A DNA stretch of 64,000 nucleotides, from the IMG/VR virus record IMGVR_UViG_3300045837_000213, positions 29,432 to 93,431 of that record; one strand, given 5' to 3'. Position numbers and translations under genes: made by a program. Shown here piece after piece: positions 4,404 to 23,838 of the stretch. Below the pieces are notes generated by a model. The model was given only the letters and a program-made list of their open reading frames with translations. It was not told the origin of the DNA and did no database searches. The first letter of the stretch is position 1. Each line of letters begins with the position of its first letter. The DNA comes from a virus (lineage: Duplodnaviria > Caudoviricetes).

Positions 4404-4859
4404 TCAGGACTGCGGGGCCGCTTCGGCGGTTGCTTCGGCGTCGCCCTCTCCGGAGAGTTCGGGGAAGAGCCAATAGAGTGCCGCCATGCAGGCCGGCAGC
4501 GGCGCGGGGTCGAAATCTTCGGCCTTGAGTCTGACCGCCGGCAGCGTCACCTCCTCGTCGCCGAGCGCTTCGATCTGCGCCTCCCACTCCTCGCGCTTCG
4601 CGCGGTCGGGGAAGCGGAAGTTCTGGCCGTCGTCGGTCTCGCCCAGGGAGCGCGCGAGCTTGATCTTCTGCTCGTCGTAAGACTCGAGTTCGACCGTCGC
4701 GCCGCGCGCGAGGCGCGCGAGGCGGATCGAAGTGGCGGCCTGCTTGGGTTGGGTGTTGGCGAGGGTGTTCAGCCAGTTCCTCGCGCCCACCAGCTCCTTC
4801 ATCTTCAGCGTGTCTGTGCCCGCCTTCCGGTTGATCGCCTCCTGCAGTTTGTCGCCCAC
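4404..4859 (-). CDS. tail-fibre-associated protein
   Basis: GAGGAGG RBS; directly downstream of the tail fibre gene. Confidence 0.6.
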   Translation of the reverse strand: MGDKLQEAINRKAGTDTLKMKELVGARNWLNTLANTQPKQAATSIRLARLARGATVELESYDEQKIKLARSLGETDDGQNFRFPDRAKREEWEAQIEALGDEEVTLPAVRLKAEDFDPAPLPACMAALYWLFPELSGEGDAEATAEAAPQS

Positions 4860-4926
4860 GTCCGCCTCCTCAGAAATAAGATGGCCGCGCCGGCGCGCAG
4901 CACGTTATTCAAAATAGCACACGGAG

Positions 4927-7900
4927 CTATGCGGGCGGCAAGTCCGCCGCCGTTAATGTCCCGGAGGTGCAGCGTCTGAGTTCCCGGACCTGACGCTCCA
5001 ACTTCGCTACCCTACTTTCGTGGTCGAAGAGATATAGGTATGCCTCTTCGACCGAGGCCAGTAGCGCGTCGCCGCCACTGAAGAGTCCGTGTCCGGCGGT
5101 CTGCCCGAAACGCGGCAGGTGCCACCAAGTGCGCGCGAACTCTTCGACCGCTTCGAGCGGCCTCAATCCGGCGTACTCTCTCGCCCCGTCATGATCAATA
5201 AACCTCTCCACCTTCCCCGTGGCCCAGTGCTCCAACACGTAGTCGGGGTTCGTATAACTCGCGCCGTTTTTGTACATGTCCCCCGACACGTTGACGGTCC
5301 CCGCGCCCTTGCTGCTCCCCGTCGCCGTACCCAGGAACACCCCGCCGTCCTGCGCGATGGTCAGGTCGGCGTGACCCCTGGAGTTGTTGTCGCAGAAGAA
5401 CGCGATGGCGTTATTGCCGCCGCTGACTTGCGACTGGTTGAAAATCTCCAGGTTGCCCCGCCGCGTGGAGAGAGCGCTGGTGCTGTTGATGACCTCAAAC
5501 AGCCCACTGCCACGTGAGGTCGTGCCGTCGCCCAGCTGGAAATACTGAAAGCTCGCCGTGTCGGTCGTATAGATTTGGACGTATGCCGTGCCGGAAGAGG
5601 CGCTGAAAGCGCCGTCGCCGCGCACGTCGAGCATGGCGATGGGCGCGGCGTTACTCCCTACCGTTAATCCCGATAGGGAACCCGCGTCAGCGTACACCCG
5701 TGCGTCAGACGAAGTGCCGCCGCTCAACTTGAGCAGAGCGGATTGCGTGCCCGCGTAATTCCACGCCTTCAGGACGAGCGCGCCCGTCGTGTTGGTGCTG
5801 CTGCCGGCGGCGGTGATACTGGCCTGAGAAATTACGTTGGTCGAGTCGTCTTTTGCCTGAATGGCGAGTATGTTCGCTCCGCCTGAGTTTTGCCAATAAG
5901 CGGAGCCAAAGCCGCTATTCGTCGGGACGTTAACGATCAGCGCGCCACTCGCCGAGTCCGTACGACCCACGACGAGATTTCCGCTCGTCGCGTCAATCTT
6001 GAGAAGCTGGTTGCCCGATGAGAGACCATAGAGACCCGTGCGATCCATCCAGACGCCCGTCCCGGCGCTTGCGGAAGTCGGCGGCGTCGTGCCGAGGGCG
6101 AACGAGCCGCTTGACGAACTGATCGTGACCGCGCCGGTGAAGCTGCCGGACGTGGCTGTGATCGCGCCGGAGATGGTCGCGCTTGTCGCCGTCAGATTGC
6201 CCGACGAATCCAGCGTGAAGTTCGCCGCCTTGATGAGTACCTTAGACGAGTCCCATTGCAGATAATTGTTAGCGTCTTTATAAAGAGACAGACGGCCCGA
6301 ATTCGCGCCCTCAAGATAAACGCCCGCGTTCGCGCCGTAAGAGGTGGGTGGAGTCGCGCCCATCGAAATGTACTCGCCAGTGTTGTCCACATAGACGTGC
6401 GTTGACGAGATGCGGCTACTGCTCAACGTCCACCCGGCTATCGAACCGCCGCTGGCTATGACGTTTCCGCTGGTCGCGTCAATCCTGAAGATTCGGAGGC
6501 CGCCGTTCAGCGCGTACAGACCCGTCCTGTCGAGCCACAGGCCGGTGCCGTGGAGGGAGTCGGTGGGCGGGAGCGACCCGATAGAGATTGAGCCGCTTGA
6601 CGAACTGATCGTGAGCGGCCCGGTGATCGAGCCTGACGTGGCGGTGATCGCGCCGGAGACGGTCGCGCCCGTGGCCGTGATCTGCCCGCTCGTCGCGTCA
6701 AGGATGAAATTCTGAGTTCCCGCGTTGAGTCCGAAGATGCCCGTGCGGTCAACCCAGATGCCCGTGCCGTGTGTCGCATCAGTGGGCGGCGTCGTGCCTA
6801 ATGTGAAGGCCGCGCCCGAACCGGACACCTGCATCTTGCCGACGAGGAACATCCCCTGCGAGGCATCCAACTGAATCATGTTGTTGCCCGCAGAGTCGTT
6901 GATGTTCAGCACGCCGGCGGACGTGAGCTGGATGCGGTTGGTCGTGTTGAGGCGAATGTCAACCTCGCCCGACGAGATGCGGACGTTGCTCTGCCCCGCC
7001 GCGACCTGCCCGACCGTGATGTTGCCGGCGGCGTCTATCTGCTGGACGACAGTAGAGAGTCCGTTGATAGTGCGGTAGCCGTTCGTGCTGTCAATCGTGA
7101 CGTGAGTCTTGCCCGCGGCGTATTCGCCCAGCGCGATGCCGACGGTTGAAGCCGTGTAACCGTAGAAGCCCACCAATTCGCCGAACGCGGCGTGCTCCGT
7201 GATGTCATTCCACGTAGAAGAATTTCTCTTCCAGAGAACTTGAGTTGGCCCGACCTGCCCCTTGTTGTAATAGACGCGCCGCGCGGATTGTTGAGGCGTC
7301 GTAGCCCATGAGGTGAAGGCGGAGATTCTGACCCTGACCCAAAACGCGGATTGAGAGTTGACCGTGCTGCTCGCCCAGCTTGTGAGACTCGAAGCCGTCC
7401 ACTCGAACCCTTGCCAGCCGGTCGCCTTCCAATCTCCGTTCGTGTTGCCGACGAAGGTAGGGGTAAAGCTCGTCCAGGCCGAACCGTTCCAGTACTCCCA
7501 CACGAGAGTCGCGCTGTAACTCGCGGCGGTCGTGACGTTGAAATACAAGTTGTTCCAACTCGTATTCTGGACGCCGAAATAGATAGCGCCGTTGAGGACG
7601 TTCGCCGAATCGCCGAAGGGCGACCAGTTGGCGGAGGCTGCGTAGTTTGACGAGAACGCGGGCGCTGCCGTGGCGTTGTAGATGAAGTCGGGCGCGACGC
7701 TGACGGTCGAATGAAGGGAGAAAATGTCCCAGTAGCCGTTACCGGCCTGGCCCGTGTCCAAAGCGGCGTCGCCCGCGTTCCACGCGTTCGCGCCTGTGCC
7801 GTCCAGGTTGCGCGCGACTGAATACTGATACCCCCCGGTGACAGTCGAGGGGCCGGAGGTGACCCGCATGAACTCAAGGCTGCCGGACTCCTCGAAGCGA

Positions 7901-13000: not shown

Positions 13001-13693
13001 CAACGTCGTCGTGAAGGTCGAAGTGCCGGCCGCGCCCGACCAGTCGAACCTGACCGAGACCGCCGCCGCCGCCGAGTAGAAAAAGTTGAGGCGGTAAGCA
13101 GCGCCGTTGCCGACGACGCCGTTGAATTGCAGCGACGCGTTCAGCCCCATCGAGACGGCCTTGCCGCCCGACGCCGCGGCGTCCGTGATCGTGGTCGCGC
13201 CGCCCGCCGGGGTGTTCCCCACGTATTCGGCCTCGTATGAGCCGAAGGCTTCGGGGATGCCCAGTTGCGGGCGGATGTCGTAGATGAGGTCGGCGTCGGC
13301 GTAGAGCGCGAGCAGTTCGCACTCGGTGTCGGCGAACATGATGCCGATGTCGGCCTCGTAATTGTCGTTGATGATTTGGGTCGAGCGCGCGCCCTTGCCC
13401 GACCCTTGCGTCTCGGTCGTCGTCGTCTGGAATTTCCTGATGTCGCTTAAATAGACGACGTTTCCGGCGATGCGAAACCCGTGCGCGCTCCCGTCGGGCT
13501 GCACGCCCCCATAAACCAGCGGGATCATCGAGCCGTATTCGCTATCCTGTATCTGAACAGAGCCGGAGAGTTGGCCGCGCTCCTGGGCTTTCGGCTTCGG
13601 CGTTAATAAATAATTTAATGTGAACTCCGCCGCTGAGGTTGCGGCTGCGACCGCAGCAACGAGGAGTATACTTCCTGAGATCGGATCGGCCAT
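10088..13693 (-). CDS. tail tip / host-specificity protein (GTA-like), with a CBM-like YEAE insert
   Basis: YGSMIPLVYG...RIAGNVVY, PAYKGRCYLVLE and RVPNFT motifs; follows DUF2460-DUF2163-NlpC. Confidence 0.85.
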   Translation of the reverse strand: MADPISGSILLVAAVAAATSAAEFTLNYLLTPKPKAQERGQLSGSVQIQDSEYGSMIPLVYGGVQPDGSAHGFRIAGNVVYLSDIRKFQTTTTETQGSGKGARSTQIINDNYEADIGIMFADTECELLALYADADLIYDIRPQLGIPEAFGSYEAEYVGNTPAGGATTITDAAASGGKAVSMGLNASLQFNGVVGNGAAYRLNFFYSAAAAVSVRFDWSGAAGTSTFTTTLNSTGGVYALGYFSAPFALASGALNTIKVTNLSSTTLLLDKLTVSVPGVTGAVNPTPVTPPTINHLAPPSPLDPVYRDNPAANFSIVPAPDTTGMVSATVVGGAFSALRFYPGNEAQLPDPIIDAYWQTQFPVEYGSGLPVAPAYKGRCYLVLERFNLTNYQRVPNFTAVLRSKSIITAQAVLDDLAVRSGALTADYDFSALSSLYVRGMAVTQPASLKQIAAQTLQIRWGFDFAHIGGAVTAVLRGGAASYHVPPDHLGFGAQKAGGDSQSNDAPKLVRTSVKLNDVELPRRIDLTAYDPNAEFMNVTRSWMRDETTSQTPQQATTLMALSPDEVAAVARRLGETAWTEGRYAVEFDLPHQYLVATAATVLELDDGDTTYTVRVSERTGPVPGSLAFKGVFVAGAQYHEPVNLLPPTWTPPAVFFPPTLVGQFAETDYLTAEDAATGKEGYYVGVASYEQAPFRGCAVNVDRGAGYRKECDLTRYACVGVCATTLAATNTGSETIDADIYGTVQPTASFTDADIAAGLGRLMVGSERLQYKTATQLGGYANRWRFSNLVNRAQDQTAMSGHSSSERLLVLDDALKFLPVDASEALVARDHKFVAAGADIATVPATSYTFQADAFLPQPSNLKLTRLDASNGSPLTASWDKGRRGSLGPGGVAEVYRVRVFNGATLIRTHYVETGYSEPLAWQYLFGTSSIASVAEDGTLSTAGDATHTCDFQAGQIIYGDSLVHFTLGTHYPPLQFRLVGATVACGRDTATNEIVAPDHYWQNGDQVVFNSASPLSGAYYVVNATEGRFQIALIPNGTPVSLSGTPASFTMSYPALVPSPAFCSLDAVVASGVLYLRPCSVAFDSSKRIAVAGTPCAIEVASGVIRFYVGDLSKPIFVANVSPVRWPYQAQATVGQLSGEAQDALQARVDHTQARSFTYTRAMQQQDFNTGGGGTIPSALTVEVCEMFDGSPGLASTATG

Positions 13694-13903
13694 TTTGTGA
13701 GAAAAAGAAAAATGCCAGTGGGCAGACGTAGAGGTCTGCCCCCGCTGGCATTTTCGAGGTTCCGTTTTTTCCTTGATTATAGGTCGCGGTTCGCCGTCGC
13801 GGCCCGATCAGGAGTGACGCGCGTTGCGCGCGCTGTTAATACCATGCATTATAGCCGCGCCACTTGTCAATTTGTTTCTCACGAATGGTAAAGGAGGCGA
13901 AAA

Positions 13904-14356
13904 ATGACGCGAATTTTTGCGATGGCCCTACTTTTCTCAGCCTTCGCCCTGGCGCATGGCGCTCCGCAAGTCGCCGACAGGCCAGCAGGTAAGGCCACGG
14001 TCTATTTTTACAGGCTCAAGGAGTCGGGGCCCTACATCAAGACCAAGACGAGTGTTTACTGCGACGATGAAAAGCTGGCGGAGATAGGGAACGAGAGATA
14101 TTTCGCCGCCATGCTCGAACCCGGCATTCACACGTTCAGGTCAACAGATAAGCAGAGCGGCATCGAGAAAGAATTGAAGGCTGGCGAGGTCTATTATGTG
14201 AGAATCGAAATGAATTTGACCCGGATTAAATTATTCCGCAAGCCACCTTTCAGGGTGGCGACCGTCGAGCCTGAGCAGGGTAAGTATGAGGTAAAGCGAT
14301 TGAAGCCCATAAGTGAAGGTGATGTTAAGAACCATGAGAAGGTGACATTGCGGTAA
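13904..14356 (+). CDS. DUF2846-like secreted/envelope protein (moron)
   Basis: Signal peptide; ATVYFYR...LEPGIHTF...LKAGEVYYVRI; low GC; AAGGAGG RBS. Confidence 0.7.
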   Translation: MTRIFAMALLFSAFALAHGAPQVADRPAGKATVYFYRLKESGPYIKTKTSVYCDDEKLAEIGNERYFAAMLEPGIHTFRSTDKQSGIEKELKAGEVYYVRIEMNLTRIKLFRKPPFRVATVEPEQGKYEVKRLKPISEGDVKNHEKVTLR

Positions 14357-14596
14357 TTACAATTTAGGCTCGCGCTCGTGGACGTATCTCTCAAGGCAAG
14401 TGTAGCCGTCCGCTTTGGCTTGTGCGGCGTAGCCCCTGAGCCTGGCGATGATCTGCTCCGGCGTGCCCCGCGTCGTGTCATTCAAGATCGCCGCCGCCGA
14501 GAGCACGTCACCCCGCGTAAACTCGAACTCGTCTATGACGAGGAGTAAAGCGTCCTCCAACTCCGGCCTGCCCGTGTAGTAAAACCCCCCGCTCAC
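14357..14596 (-). CDS. hypothetical protein
   Basis: GTGA overlap with the upstream HTH gene. Confidence 0.55.
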   Translation of the reverse strand: MSGGFYYTGRPELEDALLLVIDEFEFTRGDVLSAAAILNDTTRGTPEQIIARLRGYAAQAKADGYTCLERYVHEREPKL

Positions 14597-14805
14597 TTCT
14601 TCCCGCCTTTCTTTGTTGATGGCCGCCCGCCCTTATCAGGCGTGAACTCTTGAAGGTCGCGGCGTGAGATGAATTTCTTTCCCGCGATTTCAATGAATGG
14701 GAGTTTACCTTGTCTTACTAGATGGCTAATCGCCTGTTTGGTAGTGCCGCGCTCTTCCGCGGCCTGCGTGATTGTAAGGAGTTCTTCGGGGTCTATTTTC
14801 ACCAT
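14593..14805 (-). CDS. helix-turn-helix DNA-binding protein (excisionase/MerR-like), probable cassette regulator
   Basis: LLTITQAAEERGTTKQAISHLVRQGKLP; basic GGRP tail; start chosen downstream of a -10 box. Confidence 0.8.
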   Translation of the reverse strand: MVKIDPEELLTITQAAEERGTTKQAISHLVRQGKLPFIEIAGKKFISRRDLQEFTPDKGGRPSTKKGGKK

Positions 14806-14811
14806 ATACCT

Positions 14812-14932
14812 ATTATACATACCTTTTGCCGGATGACAATATGTTATGCAAATTAAATATGCGGCTTGGCAATAAATCTCTTGCCTTCCGACAAAAGGTT
14901 ATTTATAATCCTTTTGTCGCTAGACAAAAGGA
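14812..14932. promoter_or_regulatory. divergent sigma70-type promoters with repeated operator-like motif
   Basis: + strand TTGCCT(14881)-17-TATAAT(14904); - strand TTGTCA-16-TATAAT (14839 to 14812); four CCTTTTGYC/GACAAAAGG copies. Confidence 0.7.
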
Positions 14933-14945
14933 AAGGCGGGCGAAC

Positions 14946-15074
14946 ATGGAAGACAAGAAAGAGCAGAAGCAGGAGACGCCGGAGGAGCGGGCCGAGCGGC
15001 AGGAGCTTAACCGGCGGATGTTCGAGTGGTTCTACGGCTACTGCGGCCAGATGGAGACGACGGTTCTATGTTAA
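14946..15074 (+). CDS. small hypothetical protein
   Basis: First ORF after the promoter; purine-rich RBS. Confidence 0.45.
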   Translation: MEDKKEQKQETPEERAERQELNRRMFEWFYGYCGQMETTVLC

Positions 15075-15427
15075 GGAAATTTCGTCCCATTACGCTCATC
15101 ACCCCTTTACAGGCGGCCACGCTTCTCGGCGTTGACCGCGCGGAACTCTTCAGGCGTTCGGGAGTCGCGGCGCACCTGGCGAAGGTGCGCCAAGGGAAAC
15201 GCTTCTCTTTCGTCCTCGAAGAAGTCGAGGCTCTCAGAAAGGAGTTACTTATGGATTACGTGATTCTATTGGCCCGCGACCCAAGCTCGCTCGCCTCTCA
15301 GGTAAACGACCTTATCAAGCGCGGGTGGCAGCCTCAGGGCGGCGTCGCCGCGAGCGAAGTTCACGAGGAAGGGACGGCGGCAGCGACGCAGTGGGCGCAG
15401 GCGATGGTTAAGCCCCAGTCGGAGTAA
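15068..15427 (+). CDS. HTH-like domain in frame with a DUF1737-like domain (internal start at 15251)
   Basis: QAATLLGVDR; AAGGAG before ATG 15251; VNDLIKRGWQPQGGV. Confidence 0.6.
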   Translation: MLRKFRPITLITPLQAATLLGVDRAELFRRSGVAAHLAKVRQGKRFSFVLEEVEALRKELLMDYVILLARDPSSLASQVNDLIKRGWQPQGGVAASEVHEEGTAAATQWAQAMVKPQSE

Positions 15428-15458
15428 ACGAACATTCCTCAGGAAGGGAGAGGGATTC

Positions 15459-15872
15459 ATGGCACAACGGGAAAGCACGGACGATATGTATTCATTACTC
15501 AAGAGGCGTTTCGACTGCTCGGAGCGGGCCGCGCTCGTCAGGCGGAAATTCGAGGTGCTGACGGTCGGGCGCGTCTCTTACCTGATTCAGTCAATCGTCT
15601 CCGAGGAGCAGGACACCTTCAAAGAGAGGTTCAACCGCCCGATCACCTTCGAGCAGGCGAAGGAGTTGGCGTCGCGGCTCCTGACGGGCGACTTCGGCGG
15701 CGGCGACGGGCAGATTCACGCCCTCATCGAGCTAATCGTCGGGATCGCCTACGAGGAGGATCACGTCGAGCGCGAACGGCTTGCGATGAGCGCTATCCGC
15801 GAGGCGTTCTTTTTCTCGGAGGCCCACGACGAAGCTTTGAACCAATTTTTCCATTGCGGGCCGAAGCAATGA
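15459..15872 (+). CDS. hypothetical protein
   Basis: GGAGAGG RBS; coupled to the HNH gene. Confidence 0.65.
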   Translation: MAQRESTDDMYSLLKRRFDCSERAALVRRKFEVLTVGRVSYLIQSIVSEEQDTFKERFNRPITFEQAKELASRLLTGDFGGGDGQIHALIELIVGIAYEEDHVERERLAMSAIREAFFFSEAHDEALNQFFHCGPKQ

Positions 15873-16174
15873 GGCGAAGATTGACTCAGGCGGAAAAGTT
15901 GCGACGGCTCTTCCAAAGGCGTCGTATGGCTACGGCCCGGCGGATGCTACGCCGGGCCGCGTCATACGGCGTAAGGGCCGAACATGTGACCCTCGACGAG
16001 ATCATCGAGCGCGACGGAACGCGCTGCCACCTTTGCGGCTTAGAAACAGACGTGGACGATAGGACTCACGACCACGTTGTGCCTCTCGTCAGGGGCGGGG
16101 AGCATACGACTATCAACTTACGCATCGCCCACAGGCGGTGTAATTCAATGAAGGGCGGTAAGAGTCACGCCTGA
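15869..16174 (+). CDS. HNH endonuclease
   Basis: RDGTRCHLCG...DHVVPLVRGGEH...NLRIAHRRCNSMKG. Confidence 0.9.
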   Translation: MRRRLTQAEKLRRLFQRRRMATARRMLRRAASYGVRAEHVTLDEIIERDGTRCHLCGLETDVDDRTHDHVVPLVRGGEHTTINLRIAHRRCNSMKGGKSHA

Positions 16175-16193
16175 TTCTAAAACGAGTTTTCTT

Positions 16194-16273
16194 GGGCGGG
16201 CATGGCTCGGTGAGGTAGGGCAACGCATGGAACGGTTTGGCCCGGCGCAGTATGGCCTGGCAAGGCATGGTTC
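16194..16273 (+). repeat. GGY-NN pentamer array 1 (16 units; putative guide RNA)
   Basis: GGGCG GGCAT GGCTC GGTGA GGTAG GGCAA CGCAT GGAAC GGTTT GGCCC GGCGC AGTAT GGCCT GGCAA GGCAT GGTTC. Confidence 0.9.
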
Positions 16274-16288
16274 AAACGCAAAAGGAGC

Positions 16289-16918
16289 ATGAGAATGTCA
16301 AACATCGTCAAGGCGAAAATCACGATCAGGGGTATGCGTCCGCTCTTACAACATCATTTCGGGCCGGACGCGTTGCCTTTGGAAAAGCAGGAGAAAGACG
16401 GCGTGGCGGGGAACTCGCCCAACGAGTGGCGGAAGACGGCGATGGTCACTAAAGACGGCCAGCTTTACCTTGAGCCGACCTACGCCTTTGCCACAATCCG
16501 CGACGCGGCGAAGTACACGAAAAAGGGGAGAGGCTCACTCCAAACCGCCGTCGCCGCCACCCTTCAAGTGCTGGACGACAGGATTTTGATTGATAGGTTT
16601 TTTCCGGGCTTCCCGAACGGACATGCCTTCGACATCCAGAAGGTCGAGCCGCCTTCGCTCGACAGGGAGCTTCCGGTTTACCTCGACGTGCAGTCTGTGA
16701 GGAATCCGACCACCAAAGCCCGCAACGTCAGGTACAGGGTGGCCGCATCCTCCGGCTGGTCGTGTTCGTTTACGATCATGTTCGACAAGACAGTCGTTGA
16801 CCGTAACCAGATGCAAGCTGTCCTTAATGACGCCGGCACTCTCGTCGGTATTGCCGACGGCAGAAGCGTTGGGTTTGGCAGGTTTTCCGTTGAAGCTTTC
16901 GACTTCTTAGAGTCTTAA
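16289..16918 (+). CDS. stand-alone Cas7/RAMP-like RNA-binding protein
   Basis: N-terminal strand ITIRGMRPLL; WSCSFTI; C-terminal Gly-rich loop GIADGRSVGFGRF; AAGGAG RBS (start 16289 or 16295); no other cas genes in the window. Confidence 0.8.
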   Translation: MRMSNIVKAKITIRGMRPLLQHHFGPDALPLEKQEKDGVAGNSPNEWRKTAMVTKDGQLYLEPTYAFATIRDAAKYTKKGRGSLQTAVAATLQVLDDRILIDRFFPGFPNGHAFDIQKVEPPSLDRELPVYLDVQSVRNPTTKARNVRYRVAASSGWSCSFTIMFDKTVVDRNQMQAVLNDAGTLVGIADGRSVGFGRFSVEAFDFLES

Positions 16919-16921
16919 CGC

Positions 16922-16987
16922 GGTGAGGCGGGGCAGGGTTCGGTATGGCGGGGCTTGGCGGTGGCCGGGCTTGGCGAGGCAAGGTCA
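16922..16987 (+). repeat. GGY-NN pentamer array 2 (13 units; putative guide RNA)
   Basis: GGTGA GGCGG GGCAG GGTTC GGTAT GGCGG GGCTT GGCGGT GGCCG GGCTT GGCGA GGCAA GGTCA. Confidence 0.9.
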
Positions 16988-17057
16988 CATACTGAAATCT
17001 GCTTCGGTCGCTCCACGGTCGAGGGCTTCGAGTTCATAGATTCATAAAGTTCCACTC

Positions 17058-17144
17058 GGCTTGGCTGCGGCTTGGCTGGTCATGGCAGGCTTCGGCTCGG
17101 TAGGGCAAGGCGATGGCAGGTTTGGGCTTGGCTAGGCGAGGAAC
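17058..17144 (+). repeat. GGY-NN pentamer array 3 (17 units; putative guide RNA)
   Basis: GGCTT GGCTGC GGCTT GGCTG GTCAT GGCAG GCTTC GGCTC GGTAG GGCAA GGCGAT GGCAG GTTTG GGCTT GGCTA GGCGA GGAAC. Confidence 0.85.
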
Positions 17145-17146
17145 GA

Positions 17147-17443
17147 ATGCCCAAGAAGCGACAGCCGCGCGAAATCTGGCTTAAGACGAAGCGCAGAATC
17201 TACGAGCGAGACGGGGGCTTATGTCAATACCCGTCTGGCAAGCATCCTGTCGCATTTGAGGAATCACATTGCGACCACATCCAGAGCGGGAAGCGAGCAA
17301 CGAACGCCGATAGCAACCTCCGAACTCTCTGCCGGATGCATCACGTCTTGAGAGCAGATAAGCGGCACAGGGGGCTAGTTGCCGCTGCCCTCCGAGATGG
17401 TATTATTGATGCCGGCTGGCGCAGTCAGGTATGGGAAGATTGA
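17147..17443 (+). CDS. HNH endonuclease
   Basis: RDGGLCQYP...HCDHIQSG...NADSNLRTLCRMHH; GAGGA RBS before MPKKRQ. Confidence 0.85.
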   Translation: MPKKRQPREIWLKTKRRIYERDGGLCQYPSGKHPVAFEESHCDHIQSGKRATNADSNLRTLCRMHHVLRADKRHRGLVAAALRDGIIDAGWRSQVWED

Positions 17444-17452
17444 ATTTCACGG

Positions 17453-17522
17453 GGCATGGCAGTGTTCGGCTAGGGTAGGTTAGGTTCGGCAAGGCGTGGC
17501 TCGGTAAGGCGTGGCAAGGAGA
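17453..17522 (+). repeat. GGY-NN pentamer array 4 (14 units; putative guide RNA)
   Basis: GGCAT GGCAG TGTTC GGCTA GGGTA GGTTA GGTTC GGCAA GGCGT GGCTC GGTAA GGCGT GGCAA GGAGA. Confidence 0.9.
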
Positions 17523-17553
17523 AAGGGCGGATGAACTCCGCCCTTTCTATTTT
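17520..17553 (+). terminator. intrinsic terminator closing the RAMP/HNH operon
   Basis: AGAAAGGGCGGA-TGAAC-TCCGCCCTTTCT followed by ATTTT. Confidence 0.85.
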
Positions 17554-17637
17554 GAAGTGATCGGGGCGCGTTGGCTATGGCGAACCCGCGCCCCTCCGGT
17601 GATAAGAAAATGCCAGCACAACCTTACCACCAAAACT

Positions 17638-18120
17638 TCACACGTCTTCTAGCGCGGCTATTTCGCGGACTCGGAACGCCGAAACATTAAAAATCGGATC
17701 AGTCCAGCGGCCTTCCGTCACACACCGCGTGGCGCGATAACGGTAGGCGTGAACGCAGCGCAGATTGTCCACCTCGTTAAGCGTCACGACTCCACAATGC
17801 TTTGCCGGTTCATTCAACCTATAGCAACGGGTCACTACATCGCCGGGCCTTGCGTCCCGCCAATGTTGCAGCCTCACCATGTGCTCGGCGAGTTTCGTAT
17901 CTAACAAGTCGCCTTCGGGAACGATATGGTATTCATAATCGTGTAGCTCGAAACCGCAGATGTCTGCCGCCGCCAGCAATACGCCCAAACAATCAAAGCC
18001 GACATCGCGCGAGCGACCCCGGTAGGCATACGGCGAGCCGACGAGGGAGCGCGCCGCGGCGACGAAGGCCGCGCGCAGCTCGTCCGCCGTCGGGTTAGGT
18101 GTGAGGGTTATTTCGGCCAC
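17638..18120 (-). CDS. NlpC/P60 tail-associated peptidase
   Basis: AARSLVGSPY...GFDCLGV...KHCGV...VHAY; GTG start overlapping the DUF2163 stop. Confidence 0.85.
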   Translation of the reverse strand: MAEITLTPNPTADELRAAFVAAARSLVGSPYAYRGRSRDVGFDCLGVLLAAADICGFELHDYEYHIVPEGDLLDTKLAEHMVRLQHWRDARPGDVVTRCYRLNEPAKHCGVVTLNEVDNLRCVHAYRYRATRCVTEGRWTDPIFNVSAFRVREIAALEDV

Positions 18121-19700: not shown

Positions 19701-22700
19701 TTAAGCGGGTTGGAATTGGAGGAGCTGCGCGCGGGCGGCGCGCCCGATCTGGCGGCCCGTCTTGCGCGCGCGCCCGCGCCCGGCTGACGTGTCCTCGTCG
19801 GCGCGGACGAAGACCTGCACGGCCCCGACCGAGACGCCGCCGCCGAAGGAAGAGCGCGACGCGTAAGACGGCGGCGTGTAGCCGGAGGCGAAACCGCCCG
19901 CGGCGAACGACCCGCCGCTGAGGCCCGTCATGCCGAGATAAGCCGCGAGCAGTTGCCTCATGCGACCGCGCTGCGCCGGGTCGGTCGTCAAGACGACCTC
20001 GTCGTAGCCGCCCTCGGCCACGCGGATGAAGCGCCCGCCCGGTCGCGCGCCGAAGATGCCGCCCGACGCGGCGTAGCCCGACGACGTGTCGGGATTGATG
20101 CCCGTCGGGTCGTCGGCCATCGTGCCGCCCGACGAGTCGTGCGGCTTGAAGAGTCCGTTGGTGAGTCCCGAAATGAAGCCGATGCCGGCGGCGGCGAGCA
20201 AGCCTTTCCAGAACGACCCTTGCGCCGCGCCCGCCGCGAGAACAGCCGCGATCGAGAGCATCGTCGAGACGATTGACTGCCCGACGCTCATCAGCGTCTT
20301 CGACTGCGCCTCGCCGGTCTTGCCGATCTGCGCGACCGAATTCTTCCACCCGTCGTTGATGGCCGTCGTGGCGGCGTGCCCCGCGCTTGAGACCGCTGAG
20401 GCGTCGGCCTTCTGAGAGTTGTTGTTGCCGCCGAGGTTGAAGAGTCGGCTGATCATCGCGCCGAACAGGCCGAAAGGCCCCAGCGCGCTCTGAACGCCGC
20501 TCTGCTGTCTCGGCTGTTGCGTCGTGCCCGTCGCCGAGCCGGGCAGCGGCGTGTTCGTCAACTGTCGGAGCAACGTCATCAGCTTCGATTCGAGCAGGTT
20601 CTCTTCCATCTTGATAATCATGTTGAGGAAGTCCTGCCCGATCTGCTGGAACATCGCCTTCCAGCCCTTCGTCCGAAGGGTCTGGAGCGCGCCGTCGATC
20701 AAGGAGATGGCCTTGTCGGCCATCTGCTTGAGCCGGTCGTTCTGCTTGGCGATTAAATCGTCCAACAATGCCAACTGACGGACGTTAGAGGATTGGCGCA
20801 CCGCCTCCATCTCGTCATCAAGGGCCTTCAACTTTTCGAGTTTTTTAACTCCGTCCTGTTCGGTCGCCTCAGTCGTCTCGCGCTCAAGTTGTAGCTCGCG
20901 TAACTTTCTCTCCTGCTGCAACTGCTCGCCTTCGAGGTCGAACTGGTACTGCTTCTGCCAGAGCGCCTGCTTGTTCTTACCCGACGCCTCCATCACCTTC
21001 AACAGCGCTTCCTGCGCCGAGCGCTGGTCTTCGGCGGTCGCGTCGGTGATCTCGGCGAGAGACTTCCTGTAGTTCTGCAACGTCGAGAGGTCGTCGGCGA
21101 CCGCCGTCTGCTCGTCCTTGTTGAATTGGGCGAACGCCTGCTTGCGTTGCAGGAAGAACGCCTTGATCTGGTCGATGGCCTCCTGCGCGGCCTCCGGGTT
21201 CGACGCGTTGGCGAGGATGGTCTTGAACGCGTCCTGCATCCCCTCGCTGTTCGTCGCGTTCACCGCGTCGTTGACCGCCTGCGAGATCATCTCCGCGAGG
21301 TCGAGGTCGGGGCCCGAGAGCGCCGACACCTCGCCCGCCCCGCCCATCGCGTGCGTGAGCGCGCCTTCGAGGACTTTGCCCTGCGCCTCGGCGACGGCGC
21401 CTAAGGCCGTGAAGCGCGCGCGCATCGCGGCGACGTGCGTCGTCGTTCCCGCCTCGATCTGGAGCTGGAGTTCCGCGTCCTGCGCGCGCTGCGCCTCTTC
21501 GAGTAAAGAGACCGCCGATTGCGCGAACTTCTGCTGTATGTCATAGCGGTGTTGTTCGCCCTCGGCGGTGTACTGCGAGAGTTTGTCCTGGTGCTCGCGC
21601 TCGGCGGCCTGCTCGCGCTGGCGGATGTCTTTGAGCTTAACGTCGCGCTTCGCGCCGTCGAGTCCGGCGGCGGCCGCCTCTTCCGCCTTGAAGCCGGCCC
21701 GCACGGCCTTGTAGCGCTCGTCTTCGAGTTGTTTGAGCGTCGAGACGTAGGACTCGTAATCGGTGAGGTTCTGGTCGAGGAAGCGCTTGGCGATCTGGTT
21801 GCCCTGCTGATAGACCGACTCTGCCTCGCGCAAGTCTATCTGCGCTGATTCCAGCGCGGCGTCGGCCATCTCGTTGCCGGCCTTGCGCCCCTTGCGGCCG
21901 CCGCCCGACTTCTCGCCCATCAGCCCGGAGACGTGTTTCGCATAATCATCTTGCGCCTTCTTCGTCGCGGCTTTGACAGCGGCATCGGCCTGCATCAGCC
22001 CGAGCATGAAAGGCGACGGCGGCTGCGCCAGGCCCCGCGCGAGCGCCGAGCCGACGCCCGCGTTGCCGCGCGCGTAATAGTCCTGCGCCGCCCTCTCGCG
22101 CATCGCGTATGGCGCGGTGAATTTGCCGCCCGAAGCGGCGCGCTCTTCCGACGTGCGCCCGTCGCCCGACGCGTAACCGCTGACCGCCTGAATGACCGAG
22201 AGTGCCGCGCGCCACGCGACGGCCACCTCGTGCGCCTTCTCGATGACGGCCAGCGCGACGCCGCCGACGATCTGCCCCCACGTCCTGAAATCGTCGCCGT
22301 TCTGAGAGAGCCACTTCGAGAGGTTGTCGAAGAGCGCCTCGAAGATGGGCATGACCTCCTCGCCCACCTTGACTTTCATCACGTCGAACTGCGCGGCGAG
22401 CAACTTCTGCTTGGCCTCGAACTCCTGCGCCGCCGCCGCGTCCTTGTCCGACAGCACCGCGCCGAGGTCTTCGAGGTGCTTGATGAACGTCGGCAGGTCG
22501 CCGTGCGCCTGCGCGATGATCGCCAGCATCGCCTTGCCGCCGCGCCCGAACGCCTCCATCGCCAGTGCCGTCTTCGTCGTGCCGTCAGGCAGCTTCGACA
22601 GGACGGTGAACATCCCTTCGAGCGCCTTCTGGTTGTCGCGCACGTCCACGTTCGCGTCCTTCAAAACGCGCGACAGTTTCGACGACTTCTCGGCGCCGGC

Positions 22701-23719: not shown

Positions 23720-23817
23720 GTCATGAGTGATGGGTAATGAGTGATGGGTGATGAGTGATGAGTGATGGGTAATGAGTGATGGGTGACGGGTGATGAGTGA
23801 TGAGTGACGGGTGACGA
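23720..23817. repeat. heptamer tandem repeat (GTRAYGR) x14
   Basis: GTGATGA/GTGATGG/GTAATGA/GTGACGG units, intergenic. Confidence 0.9.
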
Positions 23818-23838
23818 GTCGGAAATGAGGCGCGGGCC

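What the first reader, a model, noticed from the sequence alone, without database searches (positions are those of the whole stretch)
15869..17553. Stand-alone Cas7/RAMP-like protein with four GGY-NN pentamer arrays and two HNH nucleases: candidate non-CRISPR RNA-guided system
Seen: a 209-aa protein with a RAMP-type C-terminal Gly loop (GIADGRSVGFGRF) is flanked by four intergenic, same-strand arrays of 13-17 units. Each unit is a near-constant GGY plus a variable dinucleotide. All arrays end near GGC(A/G)AGG and the last abuts a terminator. There is no cas1/cas2 and no CRISPR repeat-spacer array. Established: Cas7-family RAMPs polymerise on guide RNA with a fixed nucleotide period. Inference: one subunit binds each pentamer, holds GGY and displays NN for target pairing. 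This resembles my recollection of recently reported phage 'VIPR' systems, which I cannot verify here.
Basis: partly seen in the sequence, partly recalled or inferred. Interest (0 to 1): 0.97.

Follow-up and report, generated by a model that had tools for sequence, protein, structure and literature searches.

The report
Phage VIPR RNA-guided system, HNH-linked
This is a real member of the recently published VIPR family: a small Cas7-like protein, four guide RNAs made of GGY-NN pentamers, and one conserved HNH nuclease, carried by a soil phage and apparently aimed at the tail genes and VIPR genes of rival phages.

Summary
The system is not new: VIPR was described in 2026 preprints (10.64898/2026.04.26.720920, .720927, 2026.10.15.759431).

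Four same-strand GGY/NN arrays of 13-17 units are the only such signals in 64 kb. The 207/209-aa protein folds as a single-RRM RAMP (pLDDT 94). Its best solved-structure matches are Csm3/Cas7, and a family profile hits the solved SUSP1 Vipr (PDB 36pp, E 1e-8).

Of 80 distinct homologous loci, 77 carry adjacent period-5 arrays: 67 GGY and 10 GTY. The downstream HNH gene (17147-17443) is the conserved partner, present in 84 of 90 loci. The upstream HNH gene (15869-16174) is not conserved.

Decoded with the published one-base-skip rule:
- vr2 spells the G-loop codons of rival vipr genes, up to 22/22 bases.
- vr1, vr3 and vr4 hit the tail-tip, tape-measure and NlpC/P60-like tail genes of a related island-less phage contig (L104) at 85, 77 and 88%. 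No match came from 1000 shuffles or from other skip values.
- The phage's own copies score lower, partly because they use the other Ser/Arg/Leu codon family.

The roughly 4-kb island sits inside a conserved tail module, and the vr1 and vr4 sites flank the empty site in L104. Expression and activity are untested.

The parts
16199..16273 (+). vrRNA1 repeat tract: 15 GGY/NN units. The guide is probably units 1-13, and the last units form the GGCRAGG-type end.
   Evidence: It decodes to the tail-tip gene of relatives at 22/26 bases.
16289..16918 (+). vipr gene, a single-RRM RAMP. The probable start is ATG 16295 (207 aa). The G-loop is encoded at about 16847-16888.
   Evidence: phrog_4652, E 5e-15. 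1314 homologues. Profile hit to PDB 36pp SUSP1 Vipr, E 1e-8. AF2 pLDDT 94. Foldseek top hits are Csm3/Cas7.
16922..16987 (+). vrRNA2 repeat tract: 13 units, one of them 6 nt. It is an anti-vipr guide. Units 1-11 spell codon positions 1-2 of the Vipr G-loop motif DGRSIGFGRF(E).
   Evidence: Match is 22/22 to L031/L040/L050, 20/20 over the first 10 units (20/22 over units 1-11) to L004, and 19/22 to L092. Over all 13 units the own gene scores only 17/26.
17003..17047 (+). Relic of a second vipr 3' end (last 14 codons plus stop) in the spacer between arrays 2 and 3, followed directly by array 3.
Evidence: in-frame translation aligns with the intact C-terminus, 29/45 nt identical.
17058..17144 (+). 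vrRNA3 repeat tract: 16-17 units, two of them 6 nt.
   Evidence: It decodes to the tape-measure gene: 23/30 in L104 against 20/30 in the own gene.
17147..17443 (+). vap, a 98-aa HNH protein and the conserved accessory gene of this VIPR clade.
   Evidence: A homologue lies directly downstream of vipr in 84 of 90 loci. The DH...N...H motif is kept, but two of the four family-conserved Cys are replaced here. PHROG HNH 8e-10.
17453..17522 (+). vrRNA4 repeat tract: 13-14 units.
   Evidence: It decodes to the NlpC/P60-like tail gene of L104 at 21/24.
17521..17553 (+). Intrinsic terminator: GC-rich hairpin plus U-tract, closing the cassette.
   Evidence: fold. Also visible by reading the sequence.
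17379..17406 (+). Promoter-like site (extended -10) inside the vap 3' end, about 45 nt upstream of array 4.
   Evidence: This is a consensus match only.
15869..16174 (+). Second HNH endonuclease gene (101 aa). It is not a conserved VIPR partner and is probably independent phage cargo.
   Evidence: Pfam HNH 4e-9. No homologue beside vipr in the other loci.
14593..14820 (-). HTH_17/Cox-like small regulator. It is divergent from the + strand operon that ends in the VIPR cassette, and the same arrangement occurs in relatives.
   Evidence: Relatives L092-L095. Divergent promoter-like sites at 14812-14909.
13658..17744 (.). Extent of the inserted island. DNA homology to the island-less relative L104 stops at these coordinates, and about 140 nt stand in its place in L104.
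   Evidence: blastn collinearity, 73-78% identity on both sides. Gene order of L104 and L105.
13439..13477 (-). Own tail-tip gene site homologous to the vr1 target. It matches 20/26, with Arg, Leu and Ser in the other codon family.
17920..17955 (-). Own NlpC/P60-like tail gene site homologous to the vr4 target. The protein sequence has diverged here, and the match is about half.
20739..20783 (-). Own tape-measure gene site homologous to the vr3 target. It matches 20/30, with three Leu codons in the TTR family where the guide reads CTN.

Best explanation
This is a VIPR (Viral Interference Programmable Repeat) system of the clade whose accessory gene is a small HNH nuclease. It is carried on a roughly 4-kb island inserted in the tail-gene module of a siphovirus-like phage, probably of Acidobacteriota.

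Four vrRNAs are made from the GGY/NN tracts. Vipr protomers polymerise on each, one per pentamer. They hold GGY and display NN, which reads double-stranded DNA two bases at a time with one base skipped.

Here the guides point at competitors. vr2 points at the G-loop-coding end of other vipr genes. vr1, vr3 and vr4 point at the tail-tip, tape-measure and NlpC/P60-like tail genes of closely related phages. The resident phage's own copies escape through the alternative Ser/Arg/Leu codon family or through amino-acid change.

Binding would silence the target, as shown for the SUSP1 system. Alternatively, the HNH Vap would cut it.

Shown here: fold, homology, array-gene linkage, in-silico targets and the island insertion. 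Taken from the literature for other members: filament assembly, the skip rule and silencing. Inferred: expression, HNH activity and the effect on rivals.
For: Literature definition of VIPR.

Protein:
- Profile of 25 homologues hits PDB 36pp 'SUSP1 Vipr protein', E 1e-8. The G-loop aligns, with Asp and Arg contacts kept as D190 and R192, and thumb Arg R150 (with residue roles).
- AF2 pLDDT 94, pTM 0.88.
- Foldseek top hits are Csm3/Cas7 of type III and VII complexes: prob 1.0, E about 1e-8, TM 0.5-0.56.

Arrays:
- Unique in the window.
- GG fixed and NN near-random.
- Not more structured than shuffles.

Linkage:
- 67 of 80 distinct loci have GGY arrays next to the gene on the same strand.
- 10 more have GTY arrays. 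The last 3 are truncated genes.
- HNH homologue directly downstream in 84 of 90 loci.

Viral context:
- Portal, capsid, tail, tape-measure and hub genes surround it.
- The record is a virus contig.

Targets:
- In an all-against-all search, hits of at least 20/24 numbered 0, 32 and 7 for skips 0, 1 and 2. Of the 32 skip-1 hits, 23 were vr2 on vipr G-loop codons.
- vr2 scores at least 19/26 in 54 of 90 loci, against 17/26 for the own gene.
- On L104, vr1 scores 22/26, vr3 23/30 and vr4 21/24. None of 1000 unit-order shuffles reached these values, and other skips gave only background.
- vr1 scores 22/26 in-frame in all four fetched homologues.
- No site of at least 80% on the phage's own 93 kb.
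Against: - No expression data. No small-RNA, binding or cleavage evidence exists for this clade in what I could read.
- The HNH here lacks two of the four cysteines conserved in its family, so it could be weakened.
- vr3's best natural match (77%) is below the 80% cut-off used in the papers.
- Exact 10-unit seeds of vr1, vr3 and vr4 found nothing in IMG/VR. The four metagenome hits for vr1 were chance.
- Apart from vr2, arrays of other loci showed no skip-1 excess in the small database I could build.
- The type number in the published scheme cannot be assigned, because the figures and data tables are not held.
Confidence: 0.87

Rival explanations
1. RNA-guided homing or marker exclusion. Vipr-vrRNA brings the HNH Vap to island-less relatives during co-infection and cuts on both sides of the empty insertion site. 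Repair from the island-bearing genome then copies the island and flanking markers into the rival. This is an addition to the main reading, not an exclusion of it.
For: - The island is a clean insertion between two conserved tail genes.
- In L104 the vr4 site lies about 300 nt before the empty site and the vr1 site about 250 nt after it. The two are roughly 540 nt apart.
- The resident copies of both sites are mismatched.
- The conserved partner is a nuclease.
- The relic vipr 3' end in front of array 3 shows recombination between VIPR loci.
Against: - In 89 other loci, guides show no excess of matches to their own flanking genes within 4 kb.
- vr3 lies 3 kb away and vr2 targets vipr, so flanking is two guides out of four.
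- Tail genes are also simply the best conserved targets among relatives.
- HNH cleavage is untested.
Confidence: 0.15
2. Autoregulation. The partial matches of vr1, vr2 and vr3 to the phage's own tail-tip, vipr and tape-measure genes are the real targets and tune the phage's own late-gene and vipr expression.
For: Own-gene sites are compatible at the amino-acid level far above shuffles: 11/13, 9/11 and 11/15, reached by 0, 0 and 1 of 300 shuffles. vr2 matches 16/20 over its first ten units.
Against: - Relatives match better than self for all four guides.
- Mismatches fall on Ser/Arg/Leu codon-family switches. Those are the only synonymous changes a wobble-skipping guide can see.
- Own matches are 67-77%, below the published 80% cut-off. 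The papers report no self-targets.
Confidence: 0.07
3. Decayed or inactive cassette. The arrays and genes are remnants that no longer act.
For: - 8 of 57 units are not GGY, and there are three 6-nt units.
- Two Zn-ligand Cys are lost in the HNH.
- A relic gene fragment is present.
Against: - Both ORFs are intact, and the Vipr contact residues are kept.
- The papers describe internal degeneracy as usual.
- Guides keep highly significant matches to contemporary relatives.
Confidence: 0.04
4. The repeats are a protein-titrating sRNA of the CsrB/RsmZ kind, or a TRAP-like binding tract, with no guide function.
For: A weak sub-threshold Rfam resemblance of array 4 to PrrB/RsmZ: 17.5 bits against a gathering score of 44.
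Against: - The match is far below threshold.
- The partner protein is a RAMP homologous to Vipr.
- The NN positions carry decodable, in-frame matches to rival genes only with a one-base skip.
Confidence: 0.01

Closest known systems
VIPR systems (Vipr protein plus vrRNA; bioRxiv 10.64898/2026.04.26.720920, 10.64898/2026.04.26.720927, 10.64898/2026.10.15.759431). The founder is Escherichia phage SUSP1, type II.
   Same: - Small single-RRM RAMP with G-loop and thumb.
- Flanking same-strand GGY/NN tracts of 13-17 units.
- One vrRNA upstream and several downstream of the genes.
- A two-gene core.
- Phage-borne.
- One-base-skip decoding with the skip on the wobble position.
- Guides against competitors' structural genes and against other vipr genes, with the own locus spared.
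   Different: - Only distant sequence similarity to SUSP1 Vipr: the profile gives E 1e-8 over the C-terminal 90 residues.
- The stacking Trp of the SUSP1 G-loop is Gly here.
- The accessory gene is an HNH nuclease, not the DNA-binding Vap1.
- The 3' end is a short GGCRAGG-type motif, not the pseudoknot tail.
- The guides aim at related whole phages rather than a satellite.
Nuclease-bearing VIPR types (types III and V of the same paper). The legend of fig. S21 lists an HNH-domain Vap among types II, III and VII.
   Same: Vipr plus a predicted nuclease Vap. GGY/NN guides whose matches lie in viral DNA.
   Different: The paper places these types mainly in host defence islands. This one sits inside a phage tail module, and 26 homologous loci are in IMG/VR contigs. 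Equating this clade with 'type III' is my inference and could not be checked, because the figures and tables are not held.
Cas7/Csm3 backbone subunits of class 1 CRISPR-Cas effectors
   Same: RRM core, G-loop and thumb. Polymerisation on a guide with a fixed period. These are the best structural matches.
   Different: - 10-16% sequence identity.
- Period of 5 nt rather than 6 nt.
- Three guide bases sequestered per unit.
- No CRISPR array, cas1/cas2, Cas5/Cas6 or large subunit.
Free-standing homing endonuclease genes of T-even phages (marker exclusion)
   Same: A nuclease-bearing cassette inserted between conserved genes. Recognition sites flank the empty site in relatives. The resident sites are immune.
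   Different: Recognition would be RNA-guided through Vipr, not protein-encoded. Cleavage and homing are untested. This is an analogy only.

Membership tests
VIPR | Vipr protein: single-RRM RAMP fold with glycine-rich loop and thumb | tested here: met
   AF2 pLDDT 94. Foldseek top hits are Csm3/Cas7, prob 1.0. The G-loop aligns to that of SUSP1 Vipr.
VIPR | Sequence homology to an experimentally validated Vipr | tested here: met
   The profile of alignment A1 against PDB chains gives 36pp_D 'SUSP1 Vipr protein' as the only hit: E 1e-8, 38.7 bits, covering the C-terminal 90 residues.
VIPR | GGY-contact residues reported for SUSP1 (H17, R138, D177, W178, R179, K33) | tested here: inconclusive
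   D177, R179 and R138 align to D190, R192 and R150, all invariant or nearly so in the family. W178 aligns to Gly191. The N-terminal half was not aligned, so equating His22/23 and Lys33 with H17 and K33 is only a guess.
VIPR | Tandem YNNGG (GGY/NN) tracts of about 9-16 units in intergenic DNA flanking vipr, on the same strand | tested here: met
   Four tracts of 13-17 units, unique in 64 kb. The same holds in 77 of 80 homologous loci, counting the GTY variant.
VIPR | GGY conserved, NN hypervariable | tested here: met
   Entropy is 0.38, 0.35 and 1.09 bits for positions 1-3 against 1.79 and 1.98 bits for positions 4-5, over 57 units.
VIPR | Invariant 3' tail after the repeat tract (a pseudoknot in the SUSP1 clade) | tested here: inconclusive
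   A short end motif (GGCAA GGCAA GG, or GACAAGG) is conserved across the clade. No extended conserved structure was seen, and pseudoknots were not modelled.
VIPR | Conserved accessory gene (vap) beside vipr | tested here: met
   A 98-aa HNH gene lies directly downstream in 84 of 90 loci.
VIPR | Targets read with one skipped base per NN, skip on the wobble position, and no self-target | tested here: met
   In silico only. vr2 scores 22/22 on rival vipr. vr1, vr3 and vr4 score 85, 77 and 88% on L104, in frame, with none of 1000 shuffles reaching these values, and skips 0, 2 and 3 give only background. The own contig reaches at most 70%.
VIPR | vrRNAs are expressed and co-purify with Vipr; the RNP binds dsDNA | not testable with these tools
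   Needs small-RNA sequencing, pull-down and binding assays.
VIPR type II (SUSP1-like) | Vap1-type DNA-binding accessory protein and pseudoknot tail | tested here: not met
   The accessory gene is an HNH. The tail is a short motif. The protein is only distantly related to SUSP1 Vipr.
VIPR nuclease-bearing type (type III by inference) | Predicted nuclease Vap; location in host defence islands | tested here: inconclusive
   Nuclease Vap: met. Defence-island context: not met here, since the island is in a phage tail module. The paper's type tables are not held.
CRISPR-Cas class 1 | CRISPR repeat-spacer array and cas genes (cas1/cas2, Cas5/Cas6, large subunit) with the Cas7 | tested here: not met
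   Tandem Repeats Finder found no CRISPR-like repeats. No Cas1 in the contig, with positive controls working. Neighbouring genes are phage genes.

The most novel reading that the evidence does not exclude
The Vipr-HNH cassette is an RNA-guided homing element. Two of its guides mark sites about 250-300 nt on either side of the empty insertion site in island-less relatives. The HNH cuts there, and recombinational repair copies the 4-kb island into the rival phage. The resident alleles are protected by switching Ser/Arg/Leu codon family, the one kind of synonymous change that a wobble-skipping guide cannot tolerate.
Probability: 0.15. Interest if true: 0.85.

Novelty: new member of a known kind. 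Interest (0 to 1): 0.45.

Why it matters
The main point is a negative one for novelty. The 'non-CRISPR RNA-guided system' is the published VIPR family, so the discovery claim is already taken.

The locus is still a useful specimen, for four reasons.

- **Nuclease-linked VIPR in a phage.** It shows a nuclease-linked VIPR inside a phage rather than a host defence island.
- **All four guides decoded.** All four decode to plausible natural targets. This gives independent in-silico support, in a distant clade, for the one-base-skip rule and for guides aimed at rival vipr genes.
- **A concrete self-versus-rival rule.** The resident genes differ from the targets by six-fold-degenerate codon-family switches.
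- **Suggestive geometry.** Two guide sites flank the empty site, and a relic vipr end precedes one array. This suggests how such cassettes move and gain guides.

These are cheap to test in E. coli with the assays already used for SUSP1.

Tried and rejected
- **Rfam.** No family. There was only a sub-threshold RsmZ-like resemblance and no hammerhead between arrays.
- **Protein family libraries.** Pfam, NCBIfam and PADLOC have no family for the protein. Only PHROG 4652, of unknown function, matches.
- **Exact 10-unit seeds.** Seeds of vr1 (two windows), vr3 and vr4 gave 0 hits in IMG/VR. vr1 in the metagenome collection gave 4 hits in low-GC contigs. None extends beyond the seed, so they are chance.
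- **vr1 pattern in 401 Pyrinomonadaceae-family genomes.** Allowing up to 3 mismatches gave one hit, at the chance level of about 0.8 expected. It lies in an unpublished genome (G132), and nothing in this report rests on it.
- **Peptide-pattern search for relatives.** Searching for relatives of the tail-tip and tape-measure proteins in IMG/VR found none. The protein database search did find them.
- **Generality of 'guides match own flanking genes'.** In 89 other loci there was no excess over shuffles. The pattern is specific to this phage, or lies outside the 4-kb flanks.
- **Extra array candidate.** A candidate upstream of the window, at contig 15791-15875, scores 6/10. It lies inside a coding region and was judged chance.
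- **Type assignment and seed proteins.** The paper's supplements are not held, and cluster look-ups gave no seed accessions.
- **Rest of the L104 and L105 records.** They could not be searched for vipr.
Full report
**What is there.**
The + strand between 15869 and 17553 holds, in order:
- an HNH gene (15869-16174);
- repeat tract A1 (16199-16273);
- a 207/209-aa ORF (16289/16295-16918);
- tract A2 (16922-16987);
- a 70-nt spacer;
- tract A3 (17058-17144);
- a 98-aa HNH gene (17147-17443);
- tract A4 (17453-17522);
- a strong terminator hairpin.

A period-5 GGY scan of both strands of the 64-kb window finds these four tracts and nothing else. Of 57 units, 49 are exact GGY. Positions 1-2 are almost invariant G, position 3 is C or T, and positions 4-5 are close to random. 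The tracts fold no better than shuffled sequence. Rfam has no family for them.

**The protein.**
Pfam, NCBIfam and PADLOC have no model for it. Only PHROG 4652, of unknown function, matches.

It belongs to a large unannotated family. The family has 1314 hits in the 90%-clustered database and 354 representatives at 50% identity. It spans Acidobacteriota, Armatimonadota, Chloroflexota, Cyanobacteria, Bacillota and Chlamydiota, plus 26 IMG/VR contigs.

A profile of 25 members hits exactly one solved structure, PDB 36pp 'SUSP1 Vipr protein' (E 1e-8). The Asp and Arg that contact GGY in SUSP1, and the thumb Arg, are conserved. The stacking Trp is Gly here.

The AlphaFold model is confident (pLDDT 94, pTM 0.88). 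Its best structural matches are Csm3/Cas7 subunits of type III and type VII effectors.

**What is known.**
VIPR systems were described in 2026 preprints. They consist of a Vipr RAMP plus vrRNAs of 9-16 GGY/NN repeats with a 3' tail. One protomer binds each repeat, GGY is flipped out, and NN pairs with dsDNA while every third target base is skipped. The systems are mostly phage-borne, fall into seven types with different accessory vap genes, and use guides against satellites, prophages and other VIPR loci.

**Linkage in relatives.**
I fetched 90 loci around homologues.
- Among 80 distinct loci with enough flank, 67 carry same-strand GGY tracts directly beside the gene.
- Ten more, a cyanobacterial clade, carry GTY/NN tracts in the same place.
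- The remaining three are truncated genes.
- A homologue of the downstream HNH gene follows vipr in 84 of 90 loci, either before or after the tracts. It is the clade's vap.
- Its DH...N...H catalytic pattern is kept here, but two of four conserved cysteines are replaced.
- The upstream HNH gene has no counterpart elsewhere.
- Tract ends are conserved across the clade as GGCAA GGCAA GG or GACAAGG.

**Context.**
The record is a 93-kb linear virus contig, estimated 82% complete. Portal, capsid, major tail, tape-measure, hub and tail-tip genes lie on the minus strand around the cassette.

Two related metagenomic phage contigs (L104, L105) have the same tail module without any island. DNA homology to L104 (73-78% identity) runs up to window 13657 on one side and resumes at 17745 on the other. 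About 140 nt stand in L104 in place of about 4.1 kb here.

The island also carries a DUF2846 gene, an HTH_17/Cox-like gene divergent from the + strand operon, a DUF1737 gene and the extra HNH.

**Targets.**
Each tract was read as NN plus one skipped base.

*vr2.* In an all-against-all search of 93 tracts against 1.6 Mb, hits of at least 20/24 numbered 0 for skip 0, 32 for skip 1 and 7 for skip 2. Of the 32 skip-1 hits, 23 were this phage's vr2 on the 3' end of vipr genes in other loci.
- The vr2 dinucleotides are codon positions 1-2 of the G-loop motif DGRSIGFGRF(E).
- Three Bacillaceae prophages match 22/22.
- A Pyrinomonadaceae MAG (L004) matches all 20 bases of the first ten units, 20/22 over units 1-11.
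- Other close relatives match 19/22.
- Over all 13 units, 54 of 90 loci reach at least 19/26.
- The phage's own gene reaches 17/26. It has Ser AGC where the guide reads TCN, Arg AGG where it reads CGN, and Val where it reads Ile.

*vr1, vr3 and vr4.* At the amino-acid level, vr1 and vr3 are compatible with the phage's own tail-tip gene (11/13) and tape-measure gene (11/15). Only 0 and 1 of 300 shuffles reach these values.

| Guide | Target gene | L104 | Own copy |
|---|---|---|---|
| vr1 | tail-tip | 22/26 | 20/26 |
| vr3 | tape-measure | 23/30 | 20/30 |
| vr4 | NlpC/P60-like tail gene | 21/24 | about half |

- I fetched four homologues of the tail-tip gene. In each, the best vr1 match in the whole gene is the homologous in-frame site at 22/26. 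The own copy differs at Leu TTA versus CTN and Ser AGC versus TCN.
- The own NlpC/P60-like protein has diverged at the vr4 site.
- None of 1000 unit-order shuffles reaches these L104 values. Skips 0, 2 and 3 give background.
- The phage's own contig has no site of 80% or more.

**Geometry and history.**
In L104 the vr4 site lies about 300 nt before the empty insertion site and the vr1 site about 250 nt after it. Together with a nuclease partner and immune resident alleles, this recalls homing endonuclease genes. I rate RNA-guided homing at about 0.15, because guides of 89 other loci show no excess of matches to their own flanks and nothing is known about cleavage.

The spacer between tracts 2 and 3 contains, in frame, the last 14 codons and stop of a second vipr gene (17003-17047; 29/45 nt identical to the intact end). 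This points to guide gain by recombination at the conserved vipr 3' end.

**Verdict.**
The locus is a new member of a known kind: VIPR of the HNH-Vap clade, most likely the paper's nuclease-bearing type, though I could not verify the type number.

Expression, RNP formation, DNA binding and HNH activity are inferred from other members, not shown here.

The scan's first readers had already noted the array-to-gene decodings on this same DNA. I reached vr2, vr1 and vr3 independently before reading those notes. The evidence from relatives (L004, L031, L100-L105) and the vr4 target are new here.

Noticed in passing
L034, L037-L039, L041-L043, L045, L055, L087, L090 (about 4630-5360 in locus coordinates): A cyanobacterial sub-clade of the same Vipr-HNH family has NN-GTY pentamer tracts instead of GGY. 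The second guanine of the fixed triplet is replaced by T. L087 carries five such vrRNAs, each ending in the same tail. This may be one of the non-canonical repeat classes mentioned in 10.64898/2026.10.21.760802.
   Followed up: partly
window 16165-16198, 16900-16921, 17030-17057, 17430-17452: Each tract is preceded by a similar short leader of the form GA(G/T)TC(T/A)T(A/G)A followed by a T-rich stretch. In vipr, and in some vap genes of relatives, this leader overlaps the last codons and the stop. The protein C-termini may therefore be constrained by an RNA or DNA signal such as a promoter -10 or a processing site.
   Followed up: partly
window 14593-14909: An HTH_17/Cox-like gene on the minus strand and a pair of divergent promoter-like sites head the + strand operon that ends in the VIPR cassette. 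The same HTH_17 gene stands upstream of vipr in relatives L092-L095 and in the contig of P0010.
   Followed up: partly
window 15869-16174: The extra HNH endonuclease has no counterpart beside vipr in the other loci. Its sub-threshold NCBIfam matches are to Cas9d and IscB. It may be a free-standing homing endonuclease.
   Followed up: partly
window 23723-23819: A 7-nt tandem repeat (about 14 copies, with a 21-nt super-period) lies just beyond the start of the tape-measure gene. It is unexplained.
   Followed up: no
L092, 10624-11221: A close relative (83% Vipr identity) has about 600 nt of uncalled DNA after vipr and no called vap gene. There the island sits next to the tape-measure gene rather than the tail-tip gene, so the cassette occupies different sites in related phages.
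   Followed up: no
contig 15791-15875 (upstream of the window): A GGY period-5 score of 6/10 inside a coding region. Judged chance in 64% GC coding DNA.
   Followed up: partly
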